Below the pieces are notes generated by a model. The model did no database searches and had not been told where the DNA came from. It saw only the letters and a list, made by a program, of their open reading frames with translations. From assembly GCA_002839855.1 (NCBI GenBank), contig PGYV01000006.1, positions 16,367-80,366 of the forward strand: DNA of 64,000 nucleotides, given 5' to 3'. Shown piece by piece: positions 11,083 to 48,439 of the stretch. Made by a program: the position numbers and the translations under genes. Position 1 is the stretch's first letter. Every line of letters starts with the position of its first letter. Source of the stretch: Candidatus Goldiibacteriota bacterium HGW-Goldbacteria-1. GTDB lineage: Bacteria; Oederibacteriota; PGYV01.

Positions 11083-14000
11083 TTGAAAAAACTAACATTG
11101 CTGACTATAGCCGTTTTGTTTATAACAGTTAATATTTTTTCCGCACAAAATAATGCCATCCGCGTGGACATGGAGGGTTATAGAACCCTTGGTAATAAAT
11201 ATGTAATTCTTGTCGGGAATTCTGCTACATCATTCACCGTTAAAACTGTTTCGGGCGGTACAACTGTATTTACCGGCACTTTTTCGGCGGCTGTTGCCGA
11301 TGCCGCGTCCGGTGATTCTGTTAAAACAGGCGATTTTTCCGCGCTTACAACACCCGGCGAATACTACGTAGCGGTAACAGGGTTGGGCGAATCTTATAAC
11401 TTTAGAATATCCGATACCATTCATACTGACACTTTAACCACTCTTATGCGGGGATTTTACGGGCAGCGCTGCGGCGCATCTGTAACCTTAACTCACAGGG
11501 GAACCACTTTTACCCACGGCGCGTGCCATTTAAATGACGGAACTTACGCGGGTTCAACCGGATTAAACGGGACAAAGAATACAACCGGAGGCTGGCACGA
11601 CGCCGGCGATTACGGCAAGTACGCCTTAAACTGCGGCGTAACAAACGGCGAGCTTCTTCTTATGTACGAAAAATATTACGATGCGCTTGAACACATTAAT
11701 CTTGGGCTTCCATATTCCGGCGGCGCGCTGCCTGACGTTCTGACCGAAATTAAATACAACCTTGACTGGCATAAAAAAATGCAGCACACAAACGGCGGTG
11801 TTTTCCACAAACTTTCAAACGGCTTTCCTCAGAATATTATGCCGACGTCAGATACTGATACAAGGTATATCTTTGCAATATCTTCCGCCGCGACCGCGGA
11901 TTTTGCGGCTGTAATGGCAATTGCGGCGCGCGTTTTTGATATGTATGACGCCGCGTACGCCGCGGAATGCCTGACAGCCGCACAAAACGCGTGGGCTTTT
12001 TTACAGGCAAACCCCAATATTGTCCCGGCCGGCGGTTTTACTGACGGCAGTATGGGCGGAATTTACGGCGATACCGATGACAGTGATGAAAGGTTATGGG
12101 CGGCGGTTGAACTGTTTAACACCACAGGCGAGGCGCAGTATAATACTTATGTTGCCGCGCATTATACGGATAGAACGCTTACATTAATGTCTGACCTTGG
12201 CGATGATTGGAAAGAACTTCATCCCGTTGCTTATATGTCATATATGCAGTCCAAACAGCCATCGGTAAATACCACCGTGGTTAACGCTATGAAAACGTTA
12301 TTTCAGCCGCAGGTTAACACGTTCAGGAACAGGGTGCAGTCAACGAACGGGTATAAGTTTGTACTTAACTCCGGCGATTATTACTGGGGCTCAAACTCTG
12401 TTGCTTTAAACAGGGCGATACGGCTTGTTGCGGCATCGGAAATATTCGGAGATGATACTTATAAAGACGCCGCGGAAGAAGTGCTTCATTATATCCTTGG
12501 CAGAAACGCCATGAATAAATCTTATCTTACTTACGTCGGCGAGGTTTACACGAACCAGCCTCATCACCAGCCGTCTGCCGCGGATGGAATTACGCCGCCC
12601 TGGCCCGGGATTCTTGCCGGAGGGCCAAATGAATATTACGATACAATAGGGGCGCCGGCAAAATGTTATGTTGATGATGCAGGGAATTACACTTCCAACG
12701 AAGTGGCAATAAACTGGATGGCGGCGTACGCTTATGTGCTTGCGGCTTTTGTTCCGACGCCGGGGCCTACAAATACGCCTACCAATACCCCCACGTCTTT
12801 ATGCCACCCGCTTACATGTACTTTTACGCAGACAAGCACACCGACTGTCACTGCCACGCCGATAAATGTTTTAAGGGTAAATGTGGCGGGGGCTCAGGTA
12901 ACCACCGGCGGAAATGTCTGGCTTGCCGACAAAGCATATATAGCGGGAAGCTGGGGTTATAACACACCCGCAAATACCGGCGACCGTACCGCGCTTGGAA
13001 ATATTGTAAACAACACAACAGATGATGTTTTGTATCTTACGGAAAGATGGGGCGCGGCGCTTTCTTATACTTTTGACCTTGCAGACGGCTGGTATCTTGT
13101 CACGCTTAAATTTAATGAAATGTTTGTAAACAGCGCCAATGCCAGGCTGTTTAATATACTTCTTGAAGGGCAGGTTGTGGAATCGTCTTTTGACGTTTAT
13201 GCCGTTAATAACAGCCAGGCATACGCGGTTGACAGAAGTTATCCGGTATTGTTAACAGATGGAAAACTGAACATTGACCTTACGCAGGTAACCGAAATGT
13301 GTATTTTAAACGCGCTGCGGATAGAATCATATTACCCTCCAACCGCCACTTATACATACACTCCTTTAAACACAAATACGTTCACAAATACCGCGACAGC
13401 AACCGCTACATTTACAAATACATCCACAAGCGAATGCTATCCGCTTACATGTACGTTTACAAATACCAATACTTACACAAGCACACAAACGCCTACAAAC
13501 ACGCCTGTGCCCACTCCGATACGCGTAAACTGCGGAGGCGCGGCTTATCTTGACGGCGCGGGGAACACATGGGCTGCGGATTATGGGTTTACCGGCGGGA
13601 CTGCCACATCTGTAACTGACGCGATTGCAGGCACAACAGATGACACGCTTTATCAAAGCGAAAGGTACGGAAACCCGTCATATACTTTTACCGTTCCAAA
13701 CGGATATTATGATATTACGTTTAAGTTCGCTGAAACATGGTTCAACGCGGCAGGGGAGAGGATTTTTGACGTAAGTGTGGAGGGAGTAACTGTAATTGAC
13801 AATCTTGACTTATATGTATCAGCTCCCGGAGCAATGCGCGCGTATGATGTAATTATATCAAATGTTTTAATTACGGACGGGCAGATAAATATAACCGCTT
13901 CATCCGCGGTTGACAGCGCCAACTTCCGCGCCATTGCAATAATCCCCGCGGGCCCGGCGCCTACATTCACATATACAAATACGGTGCCTCCGACAAACAC

Positions 14001-15168
14001 ACATACGAACACAAATACCGATACTGCGACAGCCACATCCACTTTCACAAACACTTATACGGCAACAGATACCGCCACAAGCACATATACTTATACGCAT
14101 ACCAGTTCACATACCGCCACAAATACACCGGAGCCTCCCACAAATACACATACCGCAACTGATACCGCGACATATACTTATACGAATACAAATACATCCA
14201 CTTTCACATATACGCATACACATACGGCAACGCATACCAATACGGAAACCCCGACAGACACAAATACCGCAACAATTACAAACACTCCGCCGCCGGGCAG
14301 CACAAACACGCATACTTTCACAATTACATCAACTCCGTCGGATACTCATACCGCCACATATACTTATACTTACACATTTACAAATACGGCAACGCAGACC
14401 TATACCGAAGTGCCTCCGACCTTTACAGGTACTTTCACGGAAACGTTTACGTTCACATACACTTCAACTTACACGCACACGGCAACAATAACAGATACGG
14501 TTCCGCCGGGAAGCACGTCCACTAACACCCCCACGCAAACGCTGATTCCGTCAAATACCCACACGCATACGGCCACTGAAACAAGTACTTATACAAACAC
14601 TTATACCGCCACAAATACTTTTACGGAAACAAACACGGTTCCGCCGGGAAGTACAAACACTAACACTCCCACAGAAACGCTGATTCCGTCAAACACTGAT
14701 ACCGCTACACATACACACACGCATACGTTTACAAATACATACACGGCTACAAGTACACCTGTTATTCCGACTGATACGCATACGGCAACGGCAACGGTTC
14801 CGGCGCCCACAGCCACGATTACAAATACTCCCTCTTCCATTATCGCGGAAGACGCAAAACAGATAATTTCTGAAGTTATGATTTATCCAAATCCTTATAA
14901 TTCTAAAATTTCTCCGGCAGGACCCTTTGTCATATTTAAACTTGCGAAGAATGCCGCAGGAGTGTCGCTTAGAATATATTCATCTTCATTCAGGCTTGTG
15001 AAAAATATTGAATTTGAAGGAGTATTTACGGCAGGGTTGAACAGGGCGCATACCCGCGCAGAAGATTTTAAAAATCTTTCAAACGGCACTTATTATTTTG
15101 TCCTGACAGCGGACGGTGCATCAGGAAAAGCCAAAAGCAAAGCGGATAAGATGATTGTCTTAAAATAG
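11083..15168 (+). CDS. secreted GH9 endoglucanase with two malectin-like CBMs, a ~300-aa alternating-Thr region and C-terminal sorting domain
   Basis: A TTG start follows RBS AAGGAGAAA. GGWHDAGDYGKY marks the GH9 domain. Two INCGG / NCGGAAY...ERWG domains resembling malectin/CBM57 lie at about 12850-13320 and 13516-13945. A (T-X)n region lies at 13950-14830. The C-terminal domain lies at 14850-15165. Confidence 0.85.
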   Translation: MKKLTLLTIAVLFITVNIFSAQNNAIRVDMEGYRTLGNKYVILVGNSATSFTVKTVSGGTTVFTGTFSAAVADAASGDSVKTGDFSALTTPGEYYVAVTGLGESYNFRISDTIHTDTLTTLMRGFYGQRCGASVTLTHRGTTFTHGACHLNDGTYAGSTGLNGTKNTTGGWHDAGDYGKYALNCGVTNGELLLMYEKYYDALEHINLGLPYSGGALPDVLTEIKYNLDWHKKMQHTNGGVFHKLSNGFPQNIMPTSDTDTRYIFAISSAATADFAAVMAIAARVFDMYDAAYAAECLTAAQNAWAFLQANPNIVPAGGFTDGSMGGIYGDTDDSDERLWAAVELFNTTGEAQYNTYVAAHYTDRTLTLMSDLGDDWKELHPVAYMSYMQSKQPSVNTTVVNAMKTLFQPQVNTFRNRVQSTNGYKFVLNSGDYYWGSNSVALNRAIRLVAASEIFGDDTYKDAAEEVLHYILGRNAMNKSYLTYVGEVYTNQPHHQPSAADGITPPWPGILAGGPNEYYDTIGAPAKCYVDDAGNYTSNEVAINWMAAYAYVLAAFVPTPGPTNTPTNTPTSLCHPLTCTFTQTSTPTVTATPINVLRVNVAGAQVTTGGNVWLADKAYIAGSWGYNTPANTGDRTALGNIVNNTTDDVLYLTERWGAALSYTFDLADGWYLVTLKFNEMFVNSANARLFNILLEGQVVESSFDVYAVNNSQAYAVDRSYPVLLTDGKLNIDLTQVTEMCILNALRIESYYPPTATYTYTPLNTNTFTNTATATATFTNTSTSECYPLTCTFTNTNTYTSTQTPTNTPVPTPIRVNCGGAAYLDGAGNTWAADYGFTGGTATSVTDAIAGTTDDTLYQSERYGNPSYTFTVPNGYYDITFKFAETWFNAAGERIFDVSVEGVTVIDNLDLYVSAPGAMRAYDVIISNVLITDGQINITASSAVDSANFRAIAIIPAGPAPTFTYTNTVPPTNTHTNTNTDTATATSTFTNTYTATDTATSTYTYTHTSSHTATNTPEPPTNTHTATDTATYTYTNTNTSTFTYTHTHTATHTNTETPTDTNTATITNTPPPGSTNTHTFTITSTPSDTHTATYTYTYTFTNTATQTYTEVPPTFTGTFTETFTFTYTSTYTHTATITDTVPPGSTSTNTPTQTLIPSNTHTHTATETSTYTNTYTATNTFTETNTVPPGSTNTNTPTETLIPSNTDTATHTHTHTFTNTYTATSTPVIPTDTHTATATVPAPTATITNTPSSIIAEDAKQIISEVMIYPNPYNSKISPAGPFVIFKLAKNAAGVSLRIYSSSFRLVKNIEFEGVFTAGLNRAHTRAEDFKNLSNGTYYFVLTADGASGKAKSKADKMIVLK

Positions 15169-15485: not shown

Positions 15486-15609
15486 CCTTTGTTAAACATT
15501 TAACCGCAACTTTTTAACGTTAAAACTGTCAAAAGTATGGTAATATACAGGAACGTGATTTTTCATTATGAAATGGCTTAAAATACCATGCAAAAAAGAG
15601 GAGATTTCA

Positions 15610-18546
15610 ATGAAAAAATCTTTAAACGCCTTATTAATGGTGTTTATCTTTATTCCTTTATTATATGCCACGCCTGTATCTGAAAACGGCGAGCTTAAGC
15701 TTGTCGGAAATCAGCTTTCCAATTCATGCGGAAATCCGGTCCAATTAAAAGGAATGTCCAGCATGGGGCTTCAGTGGTACGGCGTTGGTCAGTGTCTGGA
15801 TACCGCCACTATGGATTATATGGTTAATACAATTGGAATTGATGTATTCAGGGCTGCTATGTATGTTGATGAAGGCGGATACCTGACTGATAAAACGAAA
15901 TACTCTAATATGGTAAATACAATTGTTGACTGGTGCGAAGCACGGGGTATTTATGTGATAATTGACTGGCATATGCTTACGCCGGGCGATCCTAATGCTC
16001 ATATTAATGAGGCCAAAACTTTTTTCGCGGAAATGTCATTAAGGCATAAAGATAAAAAGCACGTAATATATGAAATCTGCAACGAACCTAACGGCGTTTC
16101 GTGGTCAACTGTTCAGACTTACGCGAATATCATAATCCCCATAATCCGCGCAAATGACCCTGACACCATAATAATAGTAGGTACGCCTAACTGGTCACAG
16201 CTTGGTACTGATGTTGCAAATAATAAATTAAACTATACAAATATTATGTACACGTTTCATTTCTATGCCGCATCACATTCCACCGGCTTAGTTACGCCCT
16301 TTACCGATAAACTTCCAATTTTCTGTACAGAGTGGGGCATAAGCGATGCAAGCGGAAACGGCGCAATTGACACTGCAAACGCCACGAATTTTTTAAACAT
16401 ATTTGACGGAGCCAATACAGGCGGTCAGAAAATAAGCTGGGCAGGGTGGTCGTGGTGTGATAAAAACGAATCTTCTGCGTATCTGCAGGCAGGGTCGTGC
16501 CTCAGCAACCCGCCAAGGTTTACAACCGCGGGTAACTATATAATAGGCAAGATTCAGACGAATCCGAATAACTGGACAGCGTGTAACGCGCAGACTCCCA
16601 CTTTTACAAAAACAATAACACCGGGCGGGCCTACGTTTACACCCACCAGAACGCCCACTCCTTTTGCAAGTTTGTTGGTCAACTGTGCCGGGCCGCAGTA
16701 TACAAATGCGGAAGGCGTATGGCAGGCTGATAAAGCTTACGCGGCAGGAAGCTGGGGATATGTGGGTGGTACGGTTGTAAGCAGGGGAAGTGTGGCAATT
16801 GGCAATACCACAGATGACACGCTGTATCAGACTGAACGTTATGCGGACCCGGTGGAATACAGGTTTGATATTCCTAACGGGACATATTCGGTTACGTTTA
16901 AAATGTGTGAATCTTATTGGGGAAACACGACAGGCGGAAACGGAAGCAGGATATTTGACATAGTAGCGGAAAACAATACTGTAGTAAACAACCTTGATTT
17001 GTACGCGGTGGCGGGATATAACAATGCTTATGACGTAACGGTCAATATTACCGTAAATGACGGGCAGCTTAATATATCAATGCCTGCTGATGTTGATAAC
17101 GGGCTTATTAACGCGATAAAAATTGTAAACGCGGCTTCTGTGACAAACACTCCCACAAGGACCAATACGTTTACCGCCACAAGGACGCATACAAATACGT
17201 TTACAAAAACATTCACGCACACTTTTACAAGGACGAATACTTTTACCGCGACAAGGACAAACACCTTTACCGCGACAATTACTCATACTTTTACAGCCAC
17301 AAGGACAAATACGCCCGTACCTCCCACAAACACGTTTACAAATACGGCTACAAGGACATATACGCCGGTACCTCCCACAAACACATTTACAAATACGGCG
17401 ACAAGGACATATACGCCGGTACCTCCCACAAACACATTTACAAATACGGCTACAAGGACATATACTCCTGTGCCGCCAACAAGCACATTTACTGACACAG
17501 CCACAAAGACAAATACGCCCGTTCCGCCTACAAACACGTTTACTAAAACGGCTACAAATACTGCAACAAACACATTTACAAATACGGCAACTAACACAGC
17601 CACAAAAACAAACACGCCTGTGCCGCCGACAAACACATTCACGAACACTGCCACAAAGACAAACACGCCGACTGTTACGGAAACACCTATCCCGGGCAGC
17701 ACTGATACGTTTACACATACAATAACAAATACATTTACAAAAACAAATACGTTTACAAATACGCATACTGCAACTGATACATTTACGCCTGTTCCGCCCA
17801 CAAGTACGTTCACAAACACGGCGACAAATACATTTACAAATTCCAATACCGCCACCAATACAAATACCGCCACAATTACAAACACGCCTCCGCCGGGAAG
17901 CACAAATACGTTTACGCACACAATAACAAATACATTTATAAATACGGCCACAAATACGTTCACGTCAGTGCCGCCGACAGCCACGCATACATATACAAGG
18001 ACGTTTGTAAATACGGCCACAAACACTTTCACGTCAGTGCCGCCGACAGCCACGCATACATTTACAAGGACGTTTATAAATACGGCCACAAATACGTTCA
18101 CGTCAGTGCCGCCGACAGCCACGCATACGTTTACCGTTTCTTATACTGAAACAGCCGTTGTTTTTACCCCCACATATACCTTTACGGCAACCGTAACTGT
18201 TGTGTTTACAGGTACGCCAACGCCGGTTGCTACTGAAGGCAAAAAAGCCGAAATTAAAGATGTTGATGTTTATCCGGTTCCTTTTGGAAAAAAAGGGAAC
18301 GTATATTTTGAATTTACCCTTACCAAAAGCATGAACTCCGTTGAGCTGAAGATTTATTCTTCGGGTTACAGGCTGTTAAAGAGAGTTGATGTTTCTTCGG
18401 CATGCGTTCCCGGAAGAAAGAAGAGCGCAATAGCGGCAGGGGAATTTGTAAATCTTGCAAATGGGACGTATTATTTTGTACTGGAAGGTAATAGCGCGGA
18501 CGGATATGTGAGAAGCAGGACAGAGAAGATGATAATTTTAAAATAG
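15610..18546 (+). CDS. secreted GH5 endoglucanase with a malectin-like CBM, a ~360-aa T-X/PVPP repeat region and C-terminal sorting domain
   Basis: RBS AGGAG precedes the ATG at 15610. GH5 hallmarks are [11 protein letters not shown] and FCTEWG. The malectin-like domain reads [10 protein letters not shown]...TERYADP. The repeats [17 protein letters not shown] occur 3 times. The C-terminal domain lies at 18240-18543. Confidence 0.85.
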
Positions 18547-18707
18547 AGGCTTGGATGCTTTGAGGCTTGGATGCTTTGAGGCTTGGAAAGCTTGGCAGCT
18601 CGGCTTGAGTCTTTTGTCATGGTAGGCGCACCCTTTAGGGTGCGGCAGTCAGCTGTGGTTAGGCATTTGTTGTCCTGGTAGACGCGGGTCTTTAGCCCGC
18701 GGCAGTT
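18547..18707. repeat. intergenic microrepeat arm plus hairpin families A and B
   Basis: (GAGGCTTGGATGCTT)x2.5 lies at 18547-18610. Hairpin A GGTAGGCGCACCCTTTAGGGTGCGGCAGT lies at 18621-18650. Hairpin B GGTAGACGCGGGTCTTTAGCCCGCGGCAGTT lies at 18676-18707. Confidence 0.85.
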
Positions 18708-18849
18708 GGATTTGTTTTAAAACAGAACACGCGCATAATACCGAGCAATGTAATAATAGGCTCGGTATTAAAAGGCGGGGCTACCAGGGCTTAATACATA
18801 AAAAATTATATTTAAGTTATTACAAATGACAGAACAGGAGAATGATTTT

Positions 18850-21800
18850 ATGAAAAAAGGGATACTGAAATTACTTACAGGGCTTTTAATATTAATCCCG
18901 TCGTTTATATTCTCTGCGGATTCTCAGGTTAGGGTAAATTCTGTGGGATTTCTTCCTGCAAATGACAAAGGGGCGTCGGTCTCTACGGCGGTTTCGGGCT
19001 TCAACAAACGCTGTTGTTTTTTCTTCAACCGCCGCTAATATCACCGGGCCGGTTAATGCAACTGATTCCAATGAAACTGTTTATAAACTTAATTTTACCT
19101 CTTTTACAACACCCGGCACCTATTATGTTGATGTGACCGGCGTCGGCAGGTCGGTTAATTTTACTATAGCGGATAATGTATATAATGATGCTTATATTAC
19201 TTCTTATAAATCCATGTATTACTGGCGCTGCGGAATGGCTGTCAGCGCTGTTACAAACGGGCAGACTTTCGGGCACGGCGCGTGCCATACAAATGACGCG
19301 AATCAGAACTACATAGGATTTGGAAGCAATATTAGGGACGGAAAAGGCGGCTGGCATGATGCCGGAGATTTTAACAAATATATAGTTAACGCAGGCATAA
19401 CAATGGGTATGTTCTTCATGGCGTGGGAACATTACGGAAGCGTACTGAACAATATCCCGCTTACATACATGCCGAATACAGTTGCAGGTTATCCGGAGTA
19501 TAATGTATCGGCGTATCCTGATTTTCTGAAAGAATTAAGGTGGGAAATGGACTGGGTTTTAAAAATGCAGTATCCGGACGGTTCCGGTAAAGTTTCCCAT
19601 AAATTAAGCACCCTGAATTTCGGCGGTTTTATAATGCCGGAAACAGAAACCGCAACCCGCTATTATGTTGACTGGGGTTCTGCGGCTACCGCTGATTTTG
19701 TGGCGATGTGCGCAATGGCTGCCAGAATTTTCTACCCGTATGACCCTGTGTACGCGCAGAAATGCCTTGACGCGGCATGGGTAAGTTATAATTTTCTGCG
19801 CACAAATACGGCGAATAAAAACCCGGATCAGTCCGCATTTACAACCGGAGGATATGGGACAACAGACAGCGACGACAGGCTATGGGCTGCAGCTGAAATG
19901 TGGGCCACGACAGGTGATGCCAATGCAAAGACAGACCTTGATAACAGGGCAAATGCTTATTCCGATAAAACGGATGAGGATTTTGACTGGGGCAACGTAA
20001 AAAATCTGGGCATGTACACGTATTTGATGTGCACAAGGACAGGCAAGAACACAGCTATTGTAAATGATATACAGGCTGATTTGATTGCCGATGCAAACAC
20101 TATAGTTACAAAGAAAAATAATCACGCGTATTCAAGGCCTTTGGGCACAAATTTTTACTGGGGCTGCAATGGTTCGGTAGCAAGGCAGACAATGCTGCTT
20201 CAGATTGCCAATATGGTGTCGCCCAACGCTAACTATGTTAATACAGCGCTTGATTCGCTTGGATATCTTCTTGGAAGAAACCCTTTCAGGCGTTCATATG
20301 TAACGGGAATCGGGACAAGCCCTCCGATGTACCCGCATGACAGGACGTCCGGCGCGGATGGTATAACAAATCCTGTGCCGGGATATCTTGTAGGCGGTTC
20401 TAACGGAACCAACAGCGGCGACCCCGCTTTAACCGCAATGCCGGCAGGCCTTGGTGCCGCTATGTACTGGACAGATAATCAGGATTCATATGCCTCAAAT
20501 GAAATTGCTATAAACTGGCAGGGAGCGCTTGTTTACGCGCTTGCGGGTTTTTGTAAAAATCCGTCAGTACCCACATTCACGCCCACTAATACAAATACGC
20601 CCGACGGCCCCACATATACTTTCACAAATACGGCTACGCAGACAAATACGTACACGCCGTCGCATACATTCACGGTTACACCCACTGTTGTATTACCTGT
20701 GGCAATTTGTTCCGGGCCATCTTTGATAATTGACGGAAGCCTGGATGAAGCTTTCTGGCAGGCAGGGGAATGGACTGAGGTTTTAAAAGTGGTTACGGGT
20801 ACAATGCCTGCGCCCGTATCCGCGCGTTATAAAGTGCGGTATGATGATTATGGTTTTACCCTTGGCGTGCAGATTACTGACAGCGCGCTTTACAATGATT
20901 CCGGCACAGAATGGTATAACGACGATTCGGTTGAACTTTACCTTGATGTTAATAATGATAAAAGCACAACATACGACGCTGATGATTATCAGTTCAGCGT
21001 GCGCTACGTCGAAGGTATAATAAGGGAACAAAGCGGTGATCCCGGAAACGCTTACGCTGCTTACGGCTATATTGTGGGAGGTTACACGGTTGAAATTGAT
21101 GTGCCATGGGCCGATTTGGGAGTTACCCCTTTTGAAGGCATGGTAATGGGTTTTGACGTAGGCGTAAATTATGACCAGGACGGCGATGAAAGGGAAGGTG
21201 TTTTGATGTGGAACGGCACAAGCACCAACTGGCAGAACCCTTCAAATTTCGGCGAAGTAACCCTTGGCGCGCCGTGCGGTGCCGCGGAAACGCCCACGCA
21301 CACTTATACCAACACATCCACTTACACGCATACTGCGTCATACACATCAACCTTTACAAACACAGCAACAGTGCCTACAAACACGTTTACAAGCACAGCA
21401 ACAGTGCCTACAAACACGTTTACAAACACAGCAACAGTGCCTACAAACACGTTTACAAGCACAGCAACTGCACCTACATATACTTTTACGAGCACAGCAA
21501 CTGCACCTGCAAATACGTTTACGAGCACAGCAACTGCACCTGCAAATACGTTTACGAGCACAGACGTTTACAAATACGGCAACTGTTCCGACAAATACTT
21601 TCACTAACACGGCAACTGTACCGACAAATACATTTACTAATACTGCAACAGTCCCTACAAATACGTTTACAAGTACTGTAACAGTCCCTACAAATACGTT
21701 TACAAGTACAGTAACAGTATCTACAAATACATTTACAAGCACAGCAACAGCGCCGACAAATACTTTCACTCAAACTCCAACAATTCCAACGCCTACATAT

Positions 21801-22139
21801 ACTGTAACCCCTGTGATACAGGAAGGGGATAAACAGAAGATTACGGATGTAATGGTTTTCCCGCACCCATATAACGCTTCCAAAAATCCTTACGCCGGCA
21901 TAAAGTTTAACCTTTCCAAAAGCGCGGCTGTGGTAAAGATAAGATTATATTCATCAGCTTTCAGGTTGTTGGAAGAATCGGACATAGCAAAAAACTGCCA
22001 CCCGGGCAGTAATATCGGCGCGATAAGCGGAAGAAGGCTGTCAACAATGTCCAACGGGACGTATTATTTTGTCCTGATCTCGGAAGATAATGCAACAGAG
22101 GTCAGAAGTAAAGTGGATAAGATGATAATAATGAAGTAA
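18850..22139 (+). pseudogene. GH9 endoglucanase - CBM9-like - T-X repeat - C-terminal-domain gene interrupted by two frameshifts
   Basis: Three consecutive ORFs in different frames together give a complete protein. The pieces are a signal peptide + Ig-like N-terminus (frame 1), a GH9 domain with GGWHDAGDFNKY plus a CBM9-like domain IDGSLDEAFW (frame 2), and TFTNTATVPTN repeats plus the C-terminal domain (frame 3). The shifts fall at about 18990-19000 and at 21563/21564, where one 33-nt repeat unit is truncated to 16 nt. Confidence 0.7.
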
Positions 22140-22140
22140 T

Positions 22141-22355
22141 GGTTAGAATGAAAACCTTATCCCATAACCTGTTATCCCATATCCCATAAATAAAGGCATA
22201 CATCCGGCCGCGTCTTTACCTATGGGATAGGTGAATGTTGGTATTATCAAATTTCGAATCTCGAATTTCGATTCTCGATACACTTCCGTCCCTCACGCTT
22301 TAAACCGTCCCTCATGTTTTCCTAGCTGCCTAGCTGCCTAGCTGCCTAGCCGCTT
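22141..22355. repeat. intergenic repeat cluster
   Basis: TTATCCCATA / TATGGGATA inverted pairs. An (AATTTCGA/ATCTCGA) tandem at 22249-22280. A CCGTCCCTC module. (CCTAGCTG)x4 at 22322-22354. Confidence 0.75.
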
Positions 22356-22448
22356 CTCTTTCCTCAATTTTTCTGCTATAATCATCACAACTTTATTCAT
22401 TTGTTTTTGTCCAAAAACGAATTAACGCCTTATATCAAAGGAGAAAAG

Positions 22449-25400
22449 ATGACACTTAAACGGGTTTTAGCCACGGTATTTCTTCTTTCCATATTAAACT
22501 CTTACATTATTAGTGCGCCGATAACAGAGCAGATTATCGTTGACCAGATAGGGTACAGGACAACTGCCGACAAATGGTTTATGATTGCGGATCCAAGGAC
22601 GGGTTATAACGCAGCTGTTACATACGTTCCGGGTGCAAGCGTGGAATTAAGGCGCGCATCTGATGATATATCGGTTATGACTATCCCCGTTACCGCATGG
22701 AATGCCGGCGCGGAACATTCCCAGTCCGGCGATGTGGTATGGCAGGGAAATTTTTCCGCATATACAACGCCCGGTACTTATTACATATTTGACACCACAA
22801 ACAATACTCAGTCATTTGATTTTGATATTGCGGATGATACGTATAACACAATTCTTGAAAGCTCTGTTAAATCCTATTATTACCAGCGGTGCGGTACGGC
22901 AATTACCGGCGCTCACGGCGGTACGTGGACACATGCCGCTTGCCATACAACCACTCAACAGACTGCGCGCCTTTACGACGCATCACTTGGCGGCGATCAG
23001 GGAGCGGCAACCGCACGCGACATTACCGGCGGATGGCACGATGCCGGCGATTACAGAAAGTACACATCTTGGATGGCTGTTATAGTATGGGACTTGGCTT
23101 ATGCTTACGAATGGAACCCGGACGCATTTTCGGATGCTACCGGAATTCCGGAATCTAACAATGGCGTACCGGATATATTAGATGAAATAAAATGGGAACT
23201 TGACTGGCTTTTGAGAATGCAGGGTACAAACGGCGCGCTTTATTCAGGCGCATTTGTCGTGACAGGAATAAACGGAACAGGAAACGGTATCGGAGACCCG
23301 TCAACAGAGAACAGGCAGTATTTTTATGCCAACTATTCAACAGCGGCCACAGGTTCCGGCTGTTCGTCATTCGCAATAGGCGCTCGCCTTTTTGCGCCTT
23401 ATGAAGCAGCTTATCCGGGTTATTCCGCCGCGCTTCAAATCGCCGCCGAAAACGCGTGGGCTTATCTTCAGGCAAATCCTTCGAATATTACTTACAATCA
23501 CACCGGGTTTGATAACGCCAACGCCAATAAAGGGGTTGATGCTGACAGGGGGCACAGGATAATGTCGGCAGCGGAACTATACAGGCTGACCGGAGATACA
23601 GATTATAGAACTTATATTGACGATCACTACGATGACCCGCCTTCTACCGGAGTGCATAATCCGATTACAAGCGGATATTTTGAAACAAGCGGTTCTTATG
23701 AAATTCAAAGGGGATTGATTTCTTACTGCCTGGTGCCGGGCGCCACGTCATCAGTTGTAACCGCGGTAAAAAATTCAATCAATCAGGGTATACAGAACCA
23801 GGCTTATGGCCAGCGCAATAACGACCCATATAAGTCTTATACTTGGGATGGCCATCACTGTTGGGGTTCAAACGGAATCAAATCTGAATGGGGCAATCTT
23901 TGCGTCTTTGGTAATAAGTTAAATGTTAACGCCGGGCTTTCTGCGGCATATTTAAAAACAGGCGAAGAGTATCTTCATTACATTCACGGGCGCAACCCTA
24001 ACGCGTTTAATTACATTACACAGTCTCAGCTTTACGGCGCGGATAAGCCGATAAAGCAGATATATCACGGCTGGTTTCACCACGGCACGGTTTGGGATAT
24101 AAATCCAGCGCCCGGAATATTATCCGGCGGGCCTAACTGGTACTTTGTTCCTGACGCTTCGTATATAGGCACAATAGAACCGCCGCAAAATCAGCCGCCC
24201 ATGAAATCATATAAGGATTGGAACACAAGCTGGCCGGAAAATTCATGGGAAGTAACGGAAAATTCAACGGGCTACCAGTCGCGATACACTCTGCTTGCTT
24301 CGTTTTTCGCCTCTGCCGCGGGCCCGACAGCCACGCCCACATATACTTTTACCTATACCGATACAATAACACCCGGCGGGCCTACGTTTACTTTTACGCA
24401 CACGCCCACTGAAACATTTACAAACAGCCACACTTCCACACAGACGCCCACGCCTGTAAGCGTGCTTTTTAATACCTGCGATACCATAAATTACAACGGC
24501 GCCTGGACAGAAACCGCTTCTACAATATCCATCAACACAATTGAAACAGCGGCCATTACGCAGGGGACAGGCGCGCTTCAGATTGATGTTGAAACAATTG
24601 CGGCATGGCAGGACGGAATAGCATCACTTGGCGGTTTTGTTCCGTCAGACTGGAGCGGTATTGCACGCATTGAAATGGATGTTTATATCGCGCCCGGCGA
24701 AGAACCTTGGGGCGCGGCAGATACTTATCATCAGCTTGTATTAGTTGTGGATTCAAATGATACTTCAAAATGGTACAGGACTATTACAGCAAATCAGAAT
24801 ATTACAACAGGCATGAACCACCTGGTGTTTACAATAAACTGGGCACTTGATTTGGACCCTGACCCGATACTGCCCATAGACGCAATTAGCAATCTTACAT
24901 TTATTATAAATTCAGAGACAGGAAATACAGGGACGTTATATTTTGACAATATGATCCTTTATTCAACAGCATCCCCGGAGACACCAACCGCCACGATAAC
25001 ACTTACCCCGGTAATTTCCGCGACGGCAACAGCGACAGTTACAATGACAGAAGTATTATCCGCCACGGCGACATTAACAGCAACTGCAACAGTTACAATG
25101 ACAGAGGTGTTTTCGTTAACTATAACCAAGACGCCTACCGCGACAGTAACTGTAACACAGGATATATCATCCACATCGACGCCGACGGCAACGGCAACAG
25201 GAACTTCGACGGTGGAGGTCTCCGCTACATCAACACAGACAGCAACCCCCACGGCAACGCATACGGAAGAATTATCCGCGACAGTTACAAATACAATCAC
25301 TGTAACAATAACAATTACTTCGTCCTTAACTTTTACGGCAACGCCGACCATAACGCTGACGCCGGTTATTTCCGCTACAAATACGGTTACAAGGACAATT

Positions 25401-25871
25401 ACTATCACGTCATTTACATCTCCGACACCAACAGTTACGCCTTCTATAACAGCCACTTTTACACGTACAATCACGGTGACGGTTACTCCCACTGTTACAA
25501 ATATTATAAACACATTAACCCCAACCGTTACGCTTACACCGGCAATTCAGGAAGGGGATAAACAGGAAATTACAGATGTATTTATTTACCCGCATCCGTT
25601 TAACCCTGAATCTGACGAGATGAAAATGTTTATCAGATACAAGCTTTCAAAAAGTACAGGGTTGGTGAAACTGCGTTTATATTCGTCGGCGTTCAGGCTG
25701 ATAAGCGAAACAGAAATATCCCAAAACTGCACCCCGGGAATAAACACCGGAAGCGTAAACAGGGGAAAACTGAAAAACCTTTCCACAGGAACGTATTATT
25801 TTGTGTTAACCACAGATAACGGCGAAGGCGAAATTAAAAGCAAGGTGGATAAACTGATTATAATGAAGTAG
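22449..25871 (+). CDS. secreted GH9-family glycoside hydrolase with N-terminal Ig-like domain, an unclassified CBM-like domain, a T/V-rich linker and C-terminal sorting domain
   Basis: RBS AAAGGAGAAAAG precedes the ATG. GGWHDAGDYRKY marks the GH9 domain. The CBM-like domain lies at about 24465-24965. A TATxTxT linker lies at 24966-25540. The C-terminal domain lies at 25545-25868. Confidence 0.8.
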   Translation: MTLKRVLATVFLLSILNSYIISAPITEQIIVDQIGYRTTADKWFMIADPRTGYNAAVTYVPGASVELRRASDDISVMTIPVTAWNAGAEHSQSGDVVWQGNFSAYTTPGTYYIFDTTNNTQSFDFDIADDTYNTILESSVKSYYYQRCGTAITGAHGGTWTHAACHTTTQQTARLYDASLGGDQGAATARDITGGWHDAGDYRKYTSWMAVIVWDLAYAYEWNPDAFSDATGIPESNNGVPDILDEIKWELDWLLRMQGTNGALYSGAFVVTGINGTGNGIGDPSTENRQYFYANYSTAATGSGCSSFAIGARLFAPYEAAYPGYSAALQIAAENAWAYLQANPSNITYNHTGFDNANANKGVDADRGHRIMSAAELYRLTGDTDYRTYIDDHYDDPPSTGVHNPITSGYFETSGSYEIQRGLISYCLVPGATSSVVTAVKNSINQGIQNQAYGQRNNDPYKSYTWDGHHCWGSNGIKSEWGNLCVFGNKLNVNAGLSAAYLKTGEEYLHYIHGRNPNAFNYITQSQLYGADKPIKQIYHGWFHHGTVWDINPAPGILSGGPNWYFVPDASYIGTIEPPQNQPPMKSYKDWNTSWPENSWEVTENSTGYQSRYTLLASFFASAAGPTATPTYTFTYTDTITPGGPTFTFTHTPTETFTNSHTSTQTPTPVSVLFNTCDTINYNGAWTETASTISINTIETAAITQGTGALQIDVETIAAWQDGIASLGGFVPSDWSGIARIEMDVYIAPGEEPWGAADTYHQLVLVVDSNDTSKWYRTITANQNITTGMNHLVFTINWALDLDPDPILPIDAISNLTFIINSETGNTGTLYFDNMILYSTASPETPTATITLTPVISATATATVTMTEVLSATATLTATATVTMTEVFSLTITKTPTATVTVTQDISSTSTPTATATGTSTVEVSATSTQTATPTATHTEELSATVTNTITVTITITSSLTFTATPTITLTPVISATNTVTRTITITSFTSPTPTVTPSITATFTRTITVTVTPTVTNIINTLTPTVTLTPAIQEGDKQEITDVFIYPHPFNPESDEMKMFIRYKLSKSTGLVKLRLYSSAFRLISETEISQNCTPGINTGSVNRGKLKNLSTGTYYFVLTTDNGEGEIKSKVDKLIIMK

Positions 25872-26130
25872 ACGCTTGGATGGTTAGATGGTTAGAGGCT
25901 TGGTTAATTCTTATGTCTTGGTAGACGCGGGTCTTTAGCCCGCGTTGTTTTGATTTGATTATGTAAAAACGGACCAACTGCCGCGGGCTAAAGACCCGCG
26001 TCTACCAAGACTAAAACAAACCGACCCTCTGCCCATCCAACCTTCCGACCTTCAGTTTTTACTTCCGTCCCTTCGTTCCTCATGTTTTTCCTAGCTGCCT
26101 AGCTACTTAGCTGCCAAGCTGCCGCCTTTT
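25871..26130. repeat. composite palindromic intergenic element
   Basis: Left arm GCTTGGATGGTTAGATGGTTAGAGGCTTGG. Hairpin B at 25919-25948 and its inverted copy at 25981-26008. Right arm CCATCCAACCTTCCGACC...CTAGCTGCCTAGCTACTTAGCTGCC. Confidence 0.8.
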
Positions 26131-26216: not shown

Positions 26217-29200
26217 TTGCTGCGCAGAACGCTTTTTACAGTGATGGTTTTGCTTGTTTTTATTACCGGCCTGCGCGCTTCTTCTATAATACCAACCCAG
26301 GCGTGGTCGCGCGATGTGGGCGCTTCCGGCTATACCGACGGCGCGCCTATAGGCGGCTTTGGCGCAGGAACAATTACATGGAAAAATAACGGGGATTTTT
26401 ACCTTTCACGCCTTGACATTGGCGCCGGCGATGAAACGGGAACTTTTACCGCGGCCAACACTAACTGCAAATTCTTTATGTATCAGAAACCGGCGTCAGG
26501 TGCGGCTACAGTACAGCGCCTTGATTCTGCTAACTTAGGCACAGGGCAGGCTGTTTACAATTCGCTTTTTCCTTTTGCGTGGGTCAACTATTCCGGCAGC
26601 AGGTTTAATGTAAAAGCAAAAGTGACGCAATACTCTCCGCTTATTCCCGAAGATTATCAGCGCGTAAGTTATCCTGTGGGCGTTTATGAATGGGAGCTTA
26701 CAAACCCCACAACCCAGAACTATGACGCGGCAATAATGTTAACGTGGGAAAATCCCTATGGTTCTTCGGCTTCGCTTGTAACGGACGGAAATTATACCGG
26801 CCTTGTTTTAAACAAAGCAGGCACAGGCACGCCAACGCTTGAAACACAGGGTGAGTTCTGCCTTGCGTCTTTATCATCGGCGAACGTTACAGTCACAAGA
26901 ATGTCAGCGGCAAACAGGGCCGCCCTTGAAACTGATTTTTCCACGGACGGCGCGCTTTCAAATACAGTCGGCAGCAACACAATAGGCGCGGTTGCTTTTA
27001 AGGTCACCCTTGCGCCGGGTCAGACAGTAAGGATTCCAATAATATTATCGTGGGACATTCCAATAACACAGTCGCAGTATAACGCCAAGTGGTACAGAAA
27101 ATATACGCAGCACTTTAACCGCCTTGGGACAAATTCGTGGGCAATAGCGCGTGAAGCGCTTGCTGACAGGTCTGTGTGGGAACAGAAACTTGATGAATGG
27201 ATTCACAGGATAACCGATAACCCCAATTACCCCGAATGGCTTAAATCCATGCTGTTAAATGAAATGTATATTTATTTTACCGCAGGCACATACTGGGAAG
27301 CGGGCGCTGCTTCAGGGCAGGCGGACAACCCTTCGGAAAATATGTTTTCGCATCTGGAATCATATATTTATGATTTTTACGGCACGTCAGACGTAAGGTT
27401 TTACGGTTCATGGGCTTTGTTCATGAACTGGCCGGAAATTGACAAGCAGTGCATAAAACAATTTTCAGACTCTGTTTACAACAACCGCTCTGACAGGCCC
27501 GCGGGATTAGGGACAACCGCGCACGATATAGGTTCAAGGGCCGATGTCTTTACACGCTGGAACGCTTACGTGTACAGGGATTCCACAAACTGGAAAGATT
27601 TAAATTCCAAACTTGTGCTTATGGTTTACCGCGACTGGCACTTAACAGGCAGGACAGATTCGGCTTTTCTTGATTACTGCTGGCAGCCGTGCAAAATAGC
27701 AATGGAAAAAACCGCAACGCAGGACGCGGACGGCGACGGGCTGCCGGATTCCAACGGTATAGACCAGACTTATGATGACATGGATTTAACAGGCGACACT
27801 TCATACTGCGGCGGGCTGTATCTTGCGTCATTGCTTGCGGCAAAAGAAATGGCGCTGGCAAAGGGCGAAACCGCGCTTGCGCAGACGTATCAGGACAGGT
27901 TTGATTTCGCGCAGCCCAACTTTGAATCACAGCTGTGGACGGGGCAATATTACAGGATTGATACTGACAGCCATGATCCAACCAGGATAATGTCAGACCA
28001 GCTGTGCGGTCAGTGGTATAACAAAGCGCTTGGGCTTCCCGGAATAGTGTCAGACGCCAATGCGGTTTCTTCTTTTCAGAAAATATACGATAATAATTTT
28101 GCCAAATTCGGGAACGGCACGCACGGTGTAATTAACGTAATGAACGCGAACGGTACAATAGACACAACTTCAAGCCAGACAGAAGAATGCTGGGTTGGCA
28201 CTTCGTGGGGCGTTGCCGCGGGAATGATTCATCAGGGAATGGAAGCGCAGGCTGACGATATAGGCCAGTCGCTTTTAAACACAATCTGGAATACCGGGCA
28301 GTACTGGTTTAGGACACCCGAAGCGTTCCGCGTTAACCTTACAATACCAAGGGCGTTTTATTATATGAGGGCAACAGCGGTGTGGGCTGTTAAACACGCG
28401 TATGATTCCGTACATCCCGTGCCCACTTATACGCCTTCGCCCACTGCCACGAATACCAATACCTGGGACCCCGCGTATCCAACATATACTTTTACCAATA
28501 CAGCAACGGCAACCAATACAAGTACTTATACCCATACAGCCACAGTAACGCCTACATTTGCCGACATCAGGGTAAACTGCGGCGGGGCGGCACACAATGA
28601 CGGAACGCATATATGGGCGGCGGATTATGGTTACACCGCGGGTACGGCGGCAGGGCCTTCGGGTGCGGTTGCGGGCGCGCCTGCAGGGCAGGGAACGCTT
28701 TATCAGACCGAAAGATGGGGAATGTCCGCGTACACTTTTAATAACATTCCTTTTGGCACTTATGATATAACTTTAAAATTTGCGGAGACGTATTCGGGCG
28801 CTTATTCTGTGGGTGCAAGGGTATTTGATGTATTTATAGAAGGCACACGCGTACTTGATGATTTTGATATTTTTGCCGAAGCCGGCGCAAGCACGGCGCT
28901 GGATAAAGTGTTTAGCGCCGTTCAGGTTTCTGACGGAGTCTTAAATATTACTTTTTCGGCATCTGTTGACAACGCTAACATTACCGCCATTGAAGTTGTG
29001 CTTGTTTCGCAGATGCCCACTTCAACGCACACTTCAACCGCCACGCGCACGCCCACCGCCACTTCTACTTATACAGCCACGGACACACAGACACCTGACC
29101 CGTTATGGACAAAGACTTTTACCTATACATATACGGACACGGCAACAAACACGGCAACTTATACTTATACAAATACATATACAATCACAAACACGCCTAC

Positions 29201-30932: not shown

Positions 30933-31420
30933 AGGCTTGGACGCTTAGATGCTTAGATGCTTGGCAACATAGAGTCCGCGCGTTTTTGCTTTTGCTCTTG
31001 TAGGGATAGCGCTCCCGCGCTGTCCGGCTCTTTTTGTTTGGTATTAAATGTTTGGTAGGCGCACCTTTTAAGGTGCGGTAGTTGATTTTTTCTTTATGTT
31101 CTGGATCTTTTGTCCTGGTAGACGCGGGTCTTTAGCCCGCGGCAGTTATCTTGTCTTGGAACTTGTAGGGACGGCGTTCCCTCGCTGTCCGGTTCTTTTG
31201 TTGTCTGGTATTAAATGTTTGGTAGGCGCACCTTTTAAGGTGCGGCAGTTGATTTTAATCTGTGAATTAAATCAAAACAACGCGCCCTGAAAGGACGCGG
31301 CTACCACTGCCAAAACAAACTGACCCGCCGCCCCTCGCGTTTTAAACCGTCCCTCCGTGCATCTGTCCCTCCGTCCCTCGTGTTTTCCCAAGCCTCTAAC
31401 CATCCAAGCTTCCAAGCCTC
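30933..31420. repeat. composite palindromic intergenic element containing a duplicated ~95-nt unit
   Basis: Arms GAGGCTTGGACGCTTAGATGCTTAGATGCTTGG (30933-30969) and CCAAGCCTCTAACCATCCAAGCTTCCAAGCCTC (31385-31420). Hairpin A at 31054-31083 and 31220-31251. Hairpin B at 31116-31148. The unit CTTGTAGGGA..CGCTGTCCGG.TCTTTTGTT..GGTATTAAATGTTTGGTAGGCGCACC occurs twice. Confidence 0.8.
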
Positions 31421-40019: not shown

Positions 40020-40255
40020 ATTGTTATAGTTTCGTCACCCGCATTGTCCGGCTCTTTTGTTTGGTAGGCGCACCTTTTAAGGTGCGGCAGTTTATCTTGT
40101 CTTTGAACTTGTATTAATATCACGAATGCCTGCGATGTCTCAACATTCACGCTATCCGGCTCTGTTTGCTCTTGTATCTTCCAATCATCCAACCCTCCGA
40201 CCTTCTGACCCTCAGTTTTCCTTCCGTCCCTCCGCACATCCGTCCCTCTGATCTA
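40020..40255. repeat. intergenic repeat cluster
   Basis: Hairpin A at 40062-40092. The CCAACCCTCCGACC / CCGTCCCTCCG module at 40181-40250. Confidence 0.75.
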
Positions 40256-45271: not shown

Positions 45272-45850
45272 GCAGCTTGGCAGCTAGGCGGCTAAGCAGC
45301 TAGGCTAAAAAAAAATAAGGTTTGGTAGGCGCACCCTTCAGGGTGCGGCAGTTGGTCTTGTTTTATTTCAATCTAAACACCGCACCCTAAAGGGTGCGGC
45401 TACCAAACCAAAGCAAATAACGGATTGTATATAAAAATGTTTCAGATGTGGTAGACGCGGGTCTTTATCCCGCGGCAGTTAATGTGTAAATCCCGGTAAT
45501 TTCTTCGCTATAGCTTAATTGCTTAACCCGCTTATGCTTAATATTTATAATGCCATTTGTGACTATAATCACTGTTTTTTCATCTTTATTAAGTATAATT
45601 GTTATAGATGTAGGGGCGGTGTTTTAGGCAGAGATGGTGAGGTAAAAGCGGCGGATGAAAATCCGCCGCTTTTATTTTTAGCAAATATGTTTTTTAAAGT
45701 AGAGACGCAACATGTTGCGTCTCTACTTTAAAATATAAAACCCGCACCCTAAAGGGTACGCCTACCAGATCCATGCCAAACCTTCCGTCCCTCCGGCCAT
45801 CGTGTTTTTATGCCAAGCCTCCAACCATCCAAGCCTCTAAGCCTCCGCCT
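45272..45850. repeat. composite palindromic intergenic element
   Basis: Arm (GCAGCTWGGC)n at 45272-45305. Hairpin A at 45323-54 and its inverted copy at 45379-45408. Hairpin B at 45448-80. A terminator-like hairpin at 45645-80. Palindrome C at 45697-45730. Inverted hairpin A at 45741-68. Right arm CCGTCCCTCC...CCAAGCCTCCAACCATCCAAGCCTCTAAGCCTCC at 45781-45850. Confidence 0.8.
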
Positions 45851-47487: not shown

Positions 47488-47692
47488 TTTGTGTACTTGT
47501 TTTCTTTTTCTAATGTAGAGACGCAACATGTTGCGTCTCGCTTTTATGTGTGAATTTAAATTCTTGGTAGACACGGGTCTTTAGCCCGCGGCAGTAGATT
47601 TGATTCTGTTTATATCAGAAATCGCTCCTACGCTGTCAGCGTTTTTACAATGATTTGATAAGGGTAGTTGTTTAATTTTTCGCCAAAAATAG

Positions 47693-48133: not shown

Positions 48134-48439
48134 AAAAAACACTGTTAGATCCTAGTTAATGCCTTGATGATTTAAATTCAACTACCGCGGGCTGAAGACC
48201 CGCGTCTACCAGGACGAAACAACTACTCGAAAACCACGCGCCCTGCCGACTCCTCCATAGCAAATGACATTTCCGCGACGGCAGGAAAAGGACGCGGCTA
48301 CCGGAATTTAATACAAAATAAAAAACAACATAATACTTTTTATCCTGTTTAGGTGTTAAATAGGTTGACTAATACCCAAAAAATTATTAAAATATGGGGT
48401 ATTCGGGCTTAATTCTGTCTATGGAAAGGGATTTTTATA

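What the first reader, a model, noticed from the sequence alone, without database searches (positions are those of the whole stretch)
18985..21570. GH9 gene split by two frameshifts, one an out-of-phase deletion inside a 33-nt tandem repeat array
Its three ORFs (18826-19038, 18962-21607, 21264-22139) each carry a legitimate piece of one GH9-CBM9-(TX)n-CTD protein. Shift 1 lies at about 18990-19000, between the Ig-like N-terminus and the rest. Shift 2 lies at 21563/21564. There, a 33-nt unit ACGTTTACGAGCACAGCAACTGCACCTGCAAAT is truncated to 16 nt before the array continues in another frame. Three explanations are possible: a decaying paralog, slipped-strand switching in a repeat tract, or assembly collapse inside the repeats.
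Basis: seen in the sequence. Interest (0 to 1): 0.55.

Follow-up and report, generated by a model that had tools for sequence, protein, structure and literature searches.

The report
Assembly-error frameshifts in a cellulase gene
The two frame breaks that split this cellulase gene are in the deposited sequence, but two other assemblies of the same strain read the gene intact or unresolved there, so they are most likely contig-joining errors rather than a decaying or switchable gene.

Summary
ORFs 18826-19038, 18962-21607 and 21264-22139 are three pieces of one CelD_N-GH9-CBM9-(TX)n-CTD endoglucanase. The frame breaks lie at 18997/18998 and 21563/21564, and the second follows a 33-nt unit cut to 16 nt.

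The window comes from the NCBI MAG HGW-Goldbacteria-1; the 881-aa ORF is PKL91436.1. Two other assemblies of the same strain, one from ENA and one from JGI, show no substitution against the window across all 64 kb. The window stands alone only at these two sites.

- **Site 1:** the window lacks 17 nt and has one mismatch 3 nt upstream. ENA reads through in frame. JGI has a run of 10 N exactly there.
- **Site 2:** the window lacks 116 nt relative to JGI (50 relative to ENA), joined out of register. Both other assemblies are in frame.

Restoring the missing bases gives a single 1148-aa ORF. Between strains dN/dS is 0.08. The MAG was built from IDBA-UD scaffolds patched automatically with the ra2 suite, a pipeline whose authors report local scaffolding errors that split genes.

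Verdict: most likely an assembly or scaffold-join artefact (about 0.8). A real double-hit null allele is not excluded without reads (about 0.15). Slipped-strand switching fails because 33 is a multiple of 3. Interest is low.

The parts
18850..18997 (+). Piece 1, frame 1: start codon (ATG at 18850 preceded by GGAGA; an alternative ATG at 18826), signal-peptide-like N-terminus and the first part of the CelD_N Ig-like domain
   Evidence: ORF list. Pfam CelD_N profile 3-25 at residues 32-54. Identical to the N-terminus of intact P0126 up to residue 56.
18994..18994 (+). Single mismatch (T here; A in the ENA assembly and in L001), 3 nt upstream of junction 1. Apart from the array rearrangement, it is the only substitution in the whole window relative to the other assemblies of the strain.
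   Evidence: It changes Thr to Ser at residue 57 of the repaired protein.
18997..18998 (+). Junction 1: 17 nt (CATTTACGCTTAAAAAC) present in intact copies are missing. There is no microhomology. The frame goes from 1 to 2.
   Evidence: Alignments to L001, L002 and L003. L003 has 10 N at this exact place (L003 9844-9853).
18998..21563 (+). Piece 2, frame 2: the rest of CelD_N (18998-19147), the GH9 catalytic domain (19181-20542, with HDAGD at 19355-19369 and NEIA at 20498-20509), CBM9 (20729-21265), a TX linker, and array units 1-6 plus the 16-nt stub
   Evidence: Pfam. Motif coordinates. 100% identical to L002 and L003 from 18998 to 21534.
21350..21761 (+). 33-nt tandem array encoding TFT(N/S)TA(T)(V/A)PTN: 12 full units plus one 16-nt stub (412 nt). 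The same array has 14 units in the ENA assembly, 16 in the JGI assembly and 13 in strain L001, all in frame.
21563..21564 (+). Junction 2: out-of-register join GCACAG|ACGTTT. 116 nt (17 + 3x33) are missing relative to JGI L003, or 50 nt plus a 7-substitution cluster relative to ENA L002. The frame goes from 2 to 0.
   Evidence: The junction 20-mer is unique in the window.
21564..22139 (+). Piece 3, frame 0: array units 8-13, a linker, a C-terminal domain of about 95 aa (from about 21852) and the stop codon (22137-22139)
   Evidence: Identical to the C-terminus of P0124 and P0126.

Best explanation
The gene is intact in the organism. It encodes a secreted endoglucanase of about 1126-1148 aa: signal peptide, CelD_N Ig-like domain, GH9 catalytic domain, CBM9, Thr-rich linker built from 33-nt repeats, and a C-terminal sorting-type domain. 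The two frame breaks in the window are local errors of the deposited short-read MAG (HGW-Goldbacteria-1). Inferred mechanism: the assembler's contigs ended at these two places, and the ends were joined, or an error or gap was patched, without the intervening bases and without Ns. That removed 17 nt at site 1 and 116 nt at site 2. Shown: the window alone carries the breaks among assemblies of the same strain, site 1 is also unresolved in a second assembly, site 2 is a repeat that three assemblies reconstruct three different ways, and the source pipeline is documented to make such errors. Inferred: the exact software step that produced each join, and that the ENA assembly derives from the same reads as the MAG.
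For: (1) Identity of the record: the window's 881-aa ORF equals PKL91436.1 of HGW-Goldbacteria-1, on a contig of 179,810 bp. (2) Same strain elsewhere: ENA ERZ27239242 k141_100772 (179,725 bp) and JGI 3300038334 Ga0246094_000018 (685 kb) show no substitution against the window over 1-64000 outside the two sites. Logan contigs of runs SRR3546450 and SRR3546451 are also 100% identical where they overlap. (3) The window stands alone only at 18994-18997 and 21535-21563. The other differences are in-register repeat collapses unique to the ENA assembly. (4) At site 1, ENA and strain L001 read through in frame, JGI has 10 N exactly there, and the window has a mismatch 3 nt before the join. (5) At site 2, the window matches JGI base for base through two TAPAN units plus 16 nt, then jumps 116 nt. 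JGI's perfectly periodic stretch there is 116 nt. Unit counts are 12.5, 14 and 16 in the three assemblies. (6) Restoring 17 + 116 nt and A at 18994 gives one 1148-aa ORF equal to JGI P0124 and ENA P0126. (7) No other damage: the catalytic motifs are present. dN/dS is 0.08 against strain L001 (21 synonymous, 6 non-synonymous). All eight other members of the 90% cluster and the 65-66% orthologs are in frame wherever they cover the sites. (8) Methods of the source paper: HiSeq2000, IDBA-UD with k 40-100, scaffolds automatically curated with the ra2 suite (PMC5520028 main text and supplement). [quoted passage not shown] (9) The frameshifted products are on record in no other assembly.
Against: No raw reads could be examined, so the junctions are not shown to lack read support. 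The link between the ENA or Logan assemblies and the MAG's own sample rests on near-equal contig length and consecutive accession numbers, not on a record I could read. Site 1 is in unique sequence with no significant hairpin (z = -0.39), so I cannot say why two assemblers failed there. Population heterogeneity at that site could also break assemblies. Two errors in one gene, within an otherwise error-free 64 kb, is a coincidence that I can explain only for site 2 (the repeat).
Confidence: 0.8

Rival explanations
1. Real deletions: the sampled population, or a sub-population that the IDBA-UD assembly happened to follow, carries a null allele of this GH9 gene with two independent out-of-frame deletions. 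That would be a very recent pseudogene in a locus with several redundant cellulases.
For: The breaks are in the deposited record. The locus holds at least four GH9 and several GH5 genes, so loss of one could be tolerated. A polymorphic indel at site 1 could explain why a second assembler left a gap there. Both junctions are unique k-mers that a pure de Bruijn walk would not invent.
Against: Two complex events would have to occur in one gene while the other 64 kb accumulated no substitution relative to two intact or unresolved assemblies of the same strain. One event is a 17-nt loss with an adjacent substitution; the other is a 116-nt out-of-register loss. Neither allele appears in any other assembly. 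The gene is under strong purifying selection between strains (dN/dS 0.08). The pipeline scaffolds and patches contigs, so junction k-mers need not come from reads.
Confidence: 0.15
2. Phase variation: slipped-strand mispairing in the 33-nt array switches the C-terminal sorting domain in and out of frame.
For: Copy number of the array differs between assemblies and strains: 13, 14 and 16 units.
Against: The unit is 33 nt, a multiple of 3, so gain or loss of whole units never changes the frame. All observed copy-number variants are in frame. The window's break is a non-integral loss (3.5 units) with no microhomology at the join. Site 1 is not in a repeat. At least some of the copy-number differences are assembler collapses, since ENA also collapses the neighbouring GH5 linker.
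Confidence: 0.02
3. Recoding: the protein is made from the sequence as written, through two programmed +1 ribosomal frameshifts or through transcriptional slippage.
For: Both breaks need a shift in the same direction, +1. A T6 run lies at 19018-19023, inside the overlap of frames 1 and 2.
Against: Every relative encodes the same protein in a single frame, so the shift is not conserved. A shift in the window would still lack conserved residues (..AFTLKNA..) of the Ig-like domain. I did not recognise a +1 shift site at either junction when reading the sequence; no formal motif scan was run.
Confidence: 0.01

Closest known systems
Local scaffolding or patching errors in IDBA-UD + ra2 metagenome-assembled genomes ('split genes')
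   Same: A short-read MAG from that pipeline. Small loss of bases at a join. The gene is split into adjacent ORFs. The error is absent from other assemblies of the same strain. One site coincides with an N-gap in another assembly and the other lies in a tandem repeat. The phenomenon is described by the same laboratory (PMC4384745; PMC5220378).
   Different: The defining proof, zero perfectly mapped reads across the join, could not be obtained here. Site 1 has no repeat or structure that explains the break.
Endoglucanase CelD of Acetivibrio (Clostridium) thermocellus, GH9 with an N-terminal Ig-like domain (PDB 1CLC, 4CJ0)
   Same: The repaired protein aligns over residues 29-584 with E = 7e-187 and about 52% identity (P0062). 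It has the same Ig-like + GH9 arrangement, with the HDAGD and NEIA motifs present.
   Different: It has no dockerin. Instead it carries a CBM9 related to that of Thermotoga maritima Xyn10A (1I82, E = 5e-25), Thr-rich repeat linkers and a C-terminal sorting-type domain.
Bacterial pseudogenes formed by frameshifting deletions
   Same: As written, the record shows one gene broken by two out-of-frame deletions.
   Different: There is no independent support for the deletions, no further decay, and intact copies exist in the same strain.

Membership tests
GH9 endoglucanase, CelD-like (Ig-like N-domain + GH9) | CelD_N Ig-like domain directly upstream of the catalytic domain | tested here: met
   Pfam PF02927 is split across pieces 1 and 2 (profile 3-25 and 39-85). 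It is continuous in intact P0126 and P0001.
GH9 endoglucanase, CelD-like (Ig-like N-domain + GH9) | Full-length GH9 catalytic domain with the catalytic Asp pair (DAGD) and the Glu of the NE(I/V)A motif. The role of these residues is from established knowledge of GH9. | tested here: met
   PF00759 profile positions 1-444 of 444, E 5e-77. HDAGD at 19355-19369 and NEIA at 20498-20509. 1CLC match E 7e-187.
GH9 endoglucanase, CelD-like (Ig-like N-domain + GH9) | Endo-beta-1,4-glucanase activity | not testable with these tools
   Needs an enzyme assay.
Assembly or scaffolding artefact | The difference is confined to the join, and the flanks are identical to other assemblies of the same genome | tested here: met
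   No substitution over 64 kb. The window is unique only at 18994-18997 and 21535-21563.
Assembly or scaffolding artefact | The site coincides with a place that assemblers cannot resolve (a gap or a repeat) | tested here: met
   10 N at site 1 in the JGI scaffold. Site 2 lies in a 33-nt array with a 116-nt perfectly periodic stretch, and three assemblies give three lengths.
Assembly or scaffolding artefact | No reads support the junction sequence | not testable with these tools
No Logan contig covering the gene could be retrieved.
Pseudogene (real inactivation) | The disruption is reproducible in independent sequence of the same organism | tested here: not met
   ENA is in frame at both sites. 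JGI is in frame at site 2 and has Ns at site 1. The frameshifted products are not on record elsewhere.
Pseudogene (real inactivation) | Signs of relaxed constraint, such as further lesions or raised dN/dS | tested here: not met
   No other lesion. dN/dS is 0.08 between strains. The test is uninformative for a very recent event.
Phase-variable contingency locus (slipped-strand mispairing) | A repeat unit whose gain or loss changes the reading frame (unit length not a multiple of 3) | tested here: not met
   The unit is 33 nt. All whole-unit variants (13, 14 and 16 units) are in frame.
Programmed ribosomal frameshift | The frameshift and its shift site are conserved in orthologs | tested here: not met
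   All orthologs are single-frame.

The most novel reading that the evidence does not exclude
The deletions are real and mark a freshly inactivated cellulase in a sub-population of this deep-subsurface Goldbacteria strain. Site 1 would then be a truly polymorphic spot that defeats two different assemblers, which would show ongoing gene loss within a redundant cellulase super-locus in a population that is otherwise clonal over 64 kb.
Probability: 0.12. Interest if true: 0.3.

Novelty: not a real feature. Interest (0 to 1): 0.07.

Why it matters
The biological weight is small, but there is practical value.

- **Database record:** PKL91436.1 sits in public databases as an 881-aa 'hypothetical protein'. 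It should be read as part of an endoglucanase of about 1126-1148 aa with CelD_N, GH9, CBM9 and a sorting-type domain.
- **Downstream analyses:** HGW-Goldbacteria-1 is the founding genome of its candidate phylum and was singled out for its cellulase complement. CAZyme counts, pseudogene counts and domain-architecture surveys based on this record inherit the error.
- **Scan design:** the case shows that two frameshifts in one gene of a short-read MAG, especially at or near Thr-rich repeat linkers, should first be checked against other assemblies of the same population.

Tried and rejected
- **Exact look-ups of the window's frameshifted products.** The 881-aa and 70-aa products and P0125 are not on record in the contig index. 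The NCBI contig itself could therefore not be pulled, and no second instance of the broken allele was found.
- **Pattern scans across site 1.** A variable-gap pattern that would catch both alleles found nothing in metagenome contigs or genome contigs. It did not even catch the JGI scaffold, so these collections apparently lack the strain, or the Ns blocked the match.
- **The search for related loci in genome contigs.** It returned only one 65%-identical ortholog, which is intact (L016).
- **Read-level proxy.** Logan contigs of SRR3546450 and SRR3546451 were found for other genes of the window and are 100% identical. None covering this gene could be retrieved, and no Logan-derived fragment appears in the 90% cluster.
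- **A hard-to-sequence hairpin at site 1.** An 8-bp inverted repeat CGGCGGTT/AACCGCCG brackets the site. The fold is no better than shuffles (z = -0.39), so this gives no support.
- **A hypervariable or diversity-generating target at site 1.** Rejected. The peptide ..AVTAFTLKNASTNAVVF.. is conserved in all close relatives, the window holds no second copy of the region, and no reverse transcriptase appears in the gene lists.
- **The equal 17-nt size of both gaps relative to L001.** I considered whether it points to a systematic cause. Against the most complete assembly, site 2 is 116 nt (17 + 99), so the equality may be coincidence. I could not tie it to a software parameter.
- **Planted edit.** Rejected, because the out-of-frame head and tail are in NCBI's own protein record.

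Full report
**1. What is in the sequence**

The ORF list gives 18826-19038 (frame 1), 18962-21607 (frame 2) and 21264-22139 (frame 0). Pfam finds the first quarter of the CelD_N Ig-like domain in piece 1. It finds the rest of CelD_N, a complete GH9 domain (E 5e-77) and CBM9 (E 2e-34) in piece 2. Piece 3 carries Thr-X repeats and a C-terminal domain of about 95 aa that at least nine secreted proteins of the window share.

The array parses into six full 33-nt units (21350-21547), a 16-nt stub ACGTTTACGAGCACAG (21548-21563) and six more full units (21564-21761) in the next frame. Tandem Repeats Finder splits it at the same place. Both breaks shift the frame by +1.

**2. Where the window comes from**

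A search with the conceptually repaired protein found a 90% cluster whose members include an 881-aa NCBI protein, PKL91436.1 (CVV21_07580). It belongs to 'Candidatus Goldiibacteriota bacterium HGW-Goldbacteria-1' and sits on a 179,810-bp contig. Its sequence equals the window's middle ORF, including the out-of-frame head MTKGRRSLRRFRAS and tail DVYKYGNCSDKYFH. So the breaks are in the public record and are not peculiar to the window.

The MAG was published by Hernsdorf et al. 2017 (PMC5520028). The reads were Illumina HiSeq2000 and the assembler was IDBA-UD with k 40-100. [quoted passage not shown]

**3. The same strain, assembled twice more**

The cluster also holds full-length proteins. Their contigs were fetched:

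- **ENA:** ERZ27239242 k141_100772, 179,725 bp, gene intact at 1126 aa.
- **JGI:** 3300038334 Ga0246094_000018, 685 kb, gene called as 108 + 1040 aa.
- **L001:** a 97%-identical sister strain, ENA ERZ27297473, gene intact at 1115 aa.

Three-way alignments covering window 1-64000 show no substitution between the window and the ENA and JGI contigs outside the two sites. Logan contigs of runs SRR3546450 and SRR3546451 are likewise 100% identical where they overlap.

The window differs from both other assemblies in only two places, 18994-18997 and 21535-21563. The only other differences are in-register losses unique to the ENA assembly: 102 and 138 nt in the neighbouring GH5 linker and 66 nt in this array. 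These look like repeat collapses.

**4. Site 1**

The intact copies read GGCGGTTACGG-CATTTACGCTTAAAAAC-GCTTC. The window reads GGCGGTTTCGG-GCTTC. That is 17 nt missing with no microhomology, plus an A-to-T mismatch 3 nt before the join.

The JGI scaffold has a run of 10 N at exactly this spot: GGCGG-N10-ACGCTTAAAAACGCTTC. This is why JGI's gene call is also split. Two assemblies therefore failed here, while the two MEGAHIT-style (k141-named) ENA contigs, L002 and L001, read through in frame.

All close relatives encode ..AVTAFTLKNASTNAVVF.. across the site. I found no repeat or significant secondary structure that would explain the difficulty. That remains unexplained.

**5. Site 2**

The three assemblies compare as follows:

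| Assembly | Units in the array | In frame? |
|---|---|---|
| JGI (L003) | 16, including three identical TFTSTATAPAN units | yes |
| ENA (L002) | 14 | yes |
| Sister strain (L001) | 13 | yes |
| Window | 12 full units plus a 16-nt stub | no |

In JGI the perfectly 33-periodic stretch is 116 nt. The window agrees with JGI base for base through two TAPAN units and the first 16 nt of the third. It then jumps to the unit ACGTTTACAAATACGG.., omitting 116 nt (17 + 3x33).

Aligned to ENA instead, the same difference appears as a cluster of seven substitutions followed by a 50-nt gap. That is an alignment artefact of ENA's collapse. The join GCACAG|ACGTTT is out of register and has no microhomology.

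**6. Repair test**

I restored A at 18994, the 17 nt at site 1 and the 116 nt at site 2. The result is a single 1148-aa ORF without internal stops. It is identical to the JGI product over that product's whole length, and identical to the ENA product apart from the two TAPAN units.

The catalytic signatures HDAGD and NEIA are present. The closest solved structure is C. thermocellum endoglucanase CelD (1CLC, E 7e-187). Between this strain and L001, the 2541-nt non-repeat part has 21 synonymous and 6 non-synonymous differences, giving dN/dS of 0.08. More distant orthologs (65-66% identity, 1121-1122 aa) are also in a single frame.

**7. Interpretation**

The simplest account is that contigs of the IDBA-UD assembly ended at these two places. 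They were then joined or patched without the intervening bases and without Ns.

The laboratory that produced the MAG has described this error class. [quoted passage not shown] It wrote ra2.py to correct such errors or replace them with Ns (PMC5220378). The exact step that produced each join is inferred, not shown. I give this explanation about 0.8.

**8. Rivals**

- **A real double-hit null allele (about 0.15).** It cannot be excluded without reads. It would require two complex deletions in one gene of a population that is otherwise identical over 64 kb to assemblies lacking them, and neither allele is seen anywhere else.
- **Slipped-strand phase variation (about 0.02).** It fails arithmetically. 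The unit is 33 nt, so whole-unit changes keep the frame, as all observed variants do.
- **Programmed frameshifting (about 0.01).** It is contradicted by the single-frame orthologs and by the loss of conserved residues at site 1.
- **A diversity-generating target at site 1.** I considered and rejected this: the peptide is conserved, there is no template copy, and no reverse transcriptase lies nearby.

**9. Novelty and verdict**

The feature is real in the record but most probably not in the organism, so I rate it 'not a real feature' with low interest. The useful outcomes are a corrected gene model for PKL91436.1, and a caution about frameshifts at or near repeat linkers in short-read MAGs.

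The decisive test is to count reads of PRJNA321556 that carry the two junction words and compare them with reads that carry the intact words.

Noticed in passing
window 18618-18649, 18668-18706, 25977-25993 (-), 31130-31146, 31233-31249, 40075-40091, 45336-45352, 45463-45479, 47579-47595, 48181-48197 (-), 55197-55213, 55243-55259: A small REP-like intergenic hairpin element with core CTTTAG-NNN-GCGGCAGT (for example GGTAGACGCGGGTCTTTAGCCCGCGGCAGT). There are 14 matches in the window against 0.37 expected by chance. Most of those I checked against the ORF list lie between genes, often just downstream of a gene. Strain L001 carries a copy, in reverse orientation, downstream of the GH9 gene where the window has none (27-nt insert).
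   Followed up: partly
C-termini of ORFs 82-921, 6131-8191, 8206-10473, 11083-15168, 15568-18546, 21264-22139, 22401-25871, 26217-30932, 40420-45270: At least nine secreted proteins share a C-terminal domain of about 85-100 aa (YPNP.. / ..IYSSxxRL.. / ..NGTYYFVL.. / K-hhhh-K). Some copies weakly match T9SS sorting domains: TIGR04183 at 23.4 bits against a cut-off of 23, plus PF18962 and CHU_C. The GH9's own copy matches no model on its own. This suggests a T9SS-like sorting signal in Goldbacteria.
   Followed up: partly
window 17335-17436 and 17935-18072 (GH5 gene 15568-18546): The ENA MEGAHIT-style assembly lacks 102 and 138 nt of the Thr-rich linker of the neighbouring GH5 (912 aa against 992 aa). 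The window and JGI agree with each other there. This is a second example of repeat linkers being assembled differently; here the window appears to be correct.
   Followed up: yes
window 22140-22284; L001 5529-5696; window 25832-26007: The intergenic region downstream of the GH9 gene is not homologous between the window and the 97%-identical strain L001. L001's version instead resembles the 3' end and downstream region of the next GH9 gene in the window (92.7% over 177 nt). This suggests recombination between paralogous gene ends.
   Followed up: partly
window 18546-18587, 22250-22278, 22321-22350: Short perfect or near-perfect intergenic tandem repeats: GAGGCTTGGATGCTTT x2.6 directly after the GH5 stop codon, AATTTCGAATCTCG x2, and CCTAGCTG x3.8 upstream of the next GH9. 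Their function is unknown.
   Followed up: no
window 40420-45270: A 1616-aa ORF has no Pfam family on record, yet it ends in the same C-terminal sorting-type domain as the glycoside hydrolases. It is an uncharacterised large secreted protein beside an RND efflux operon.
   Followed up: no
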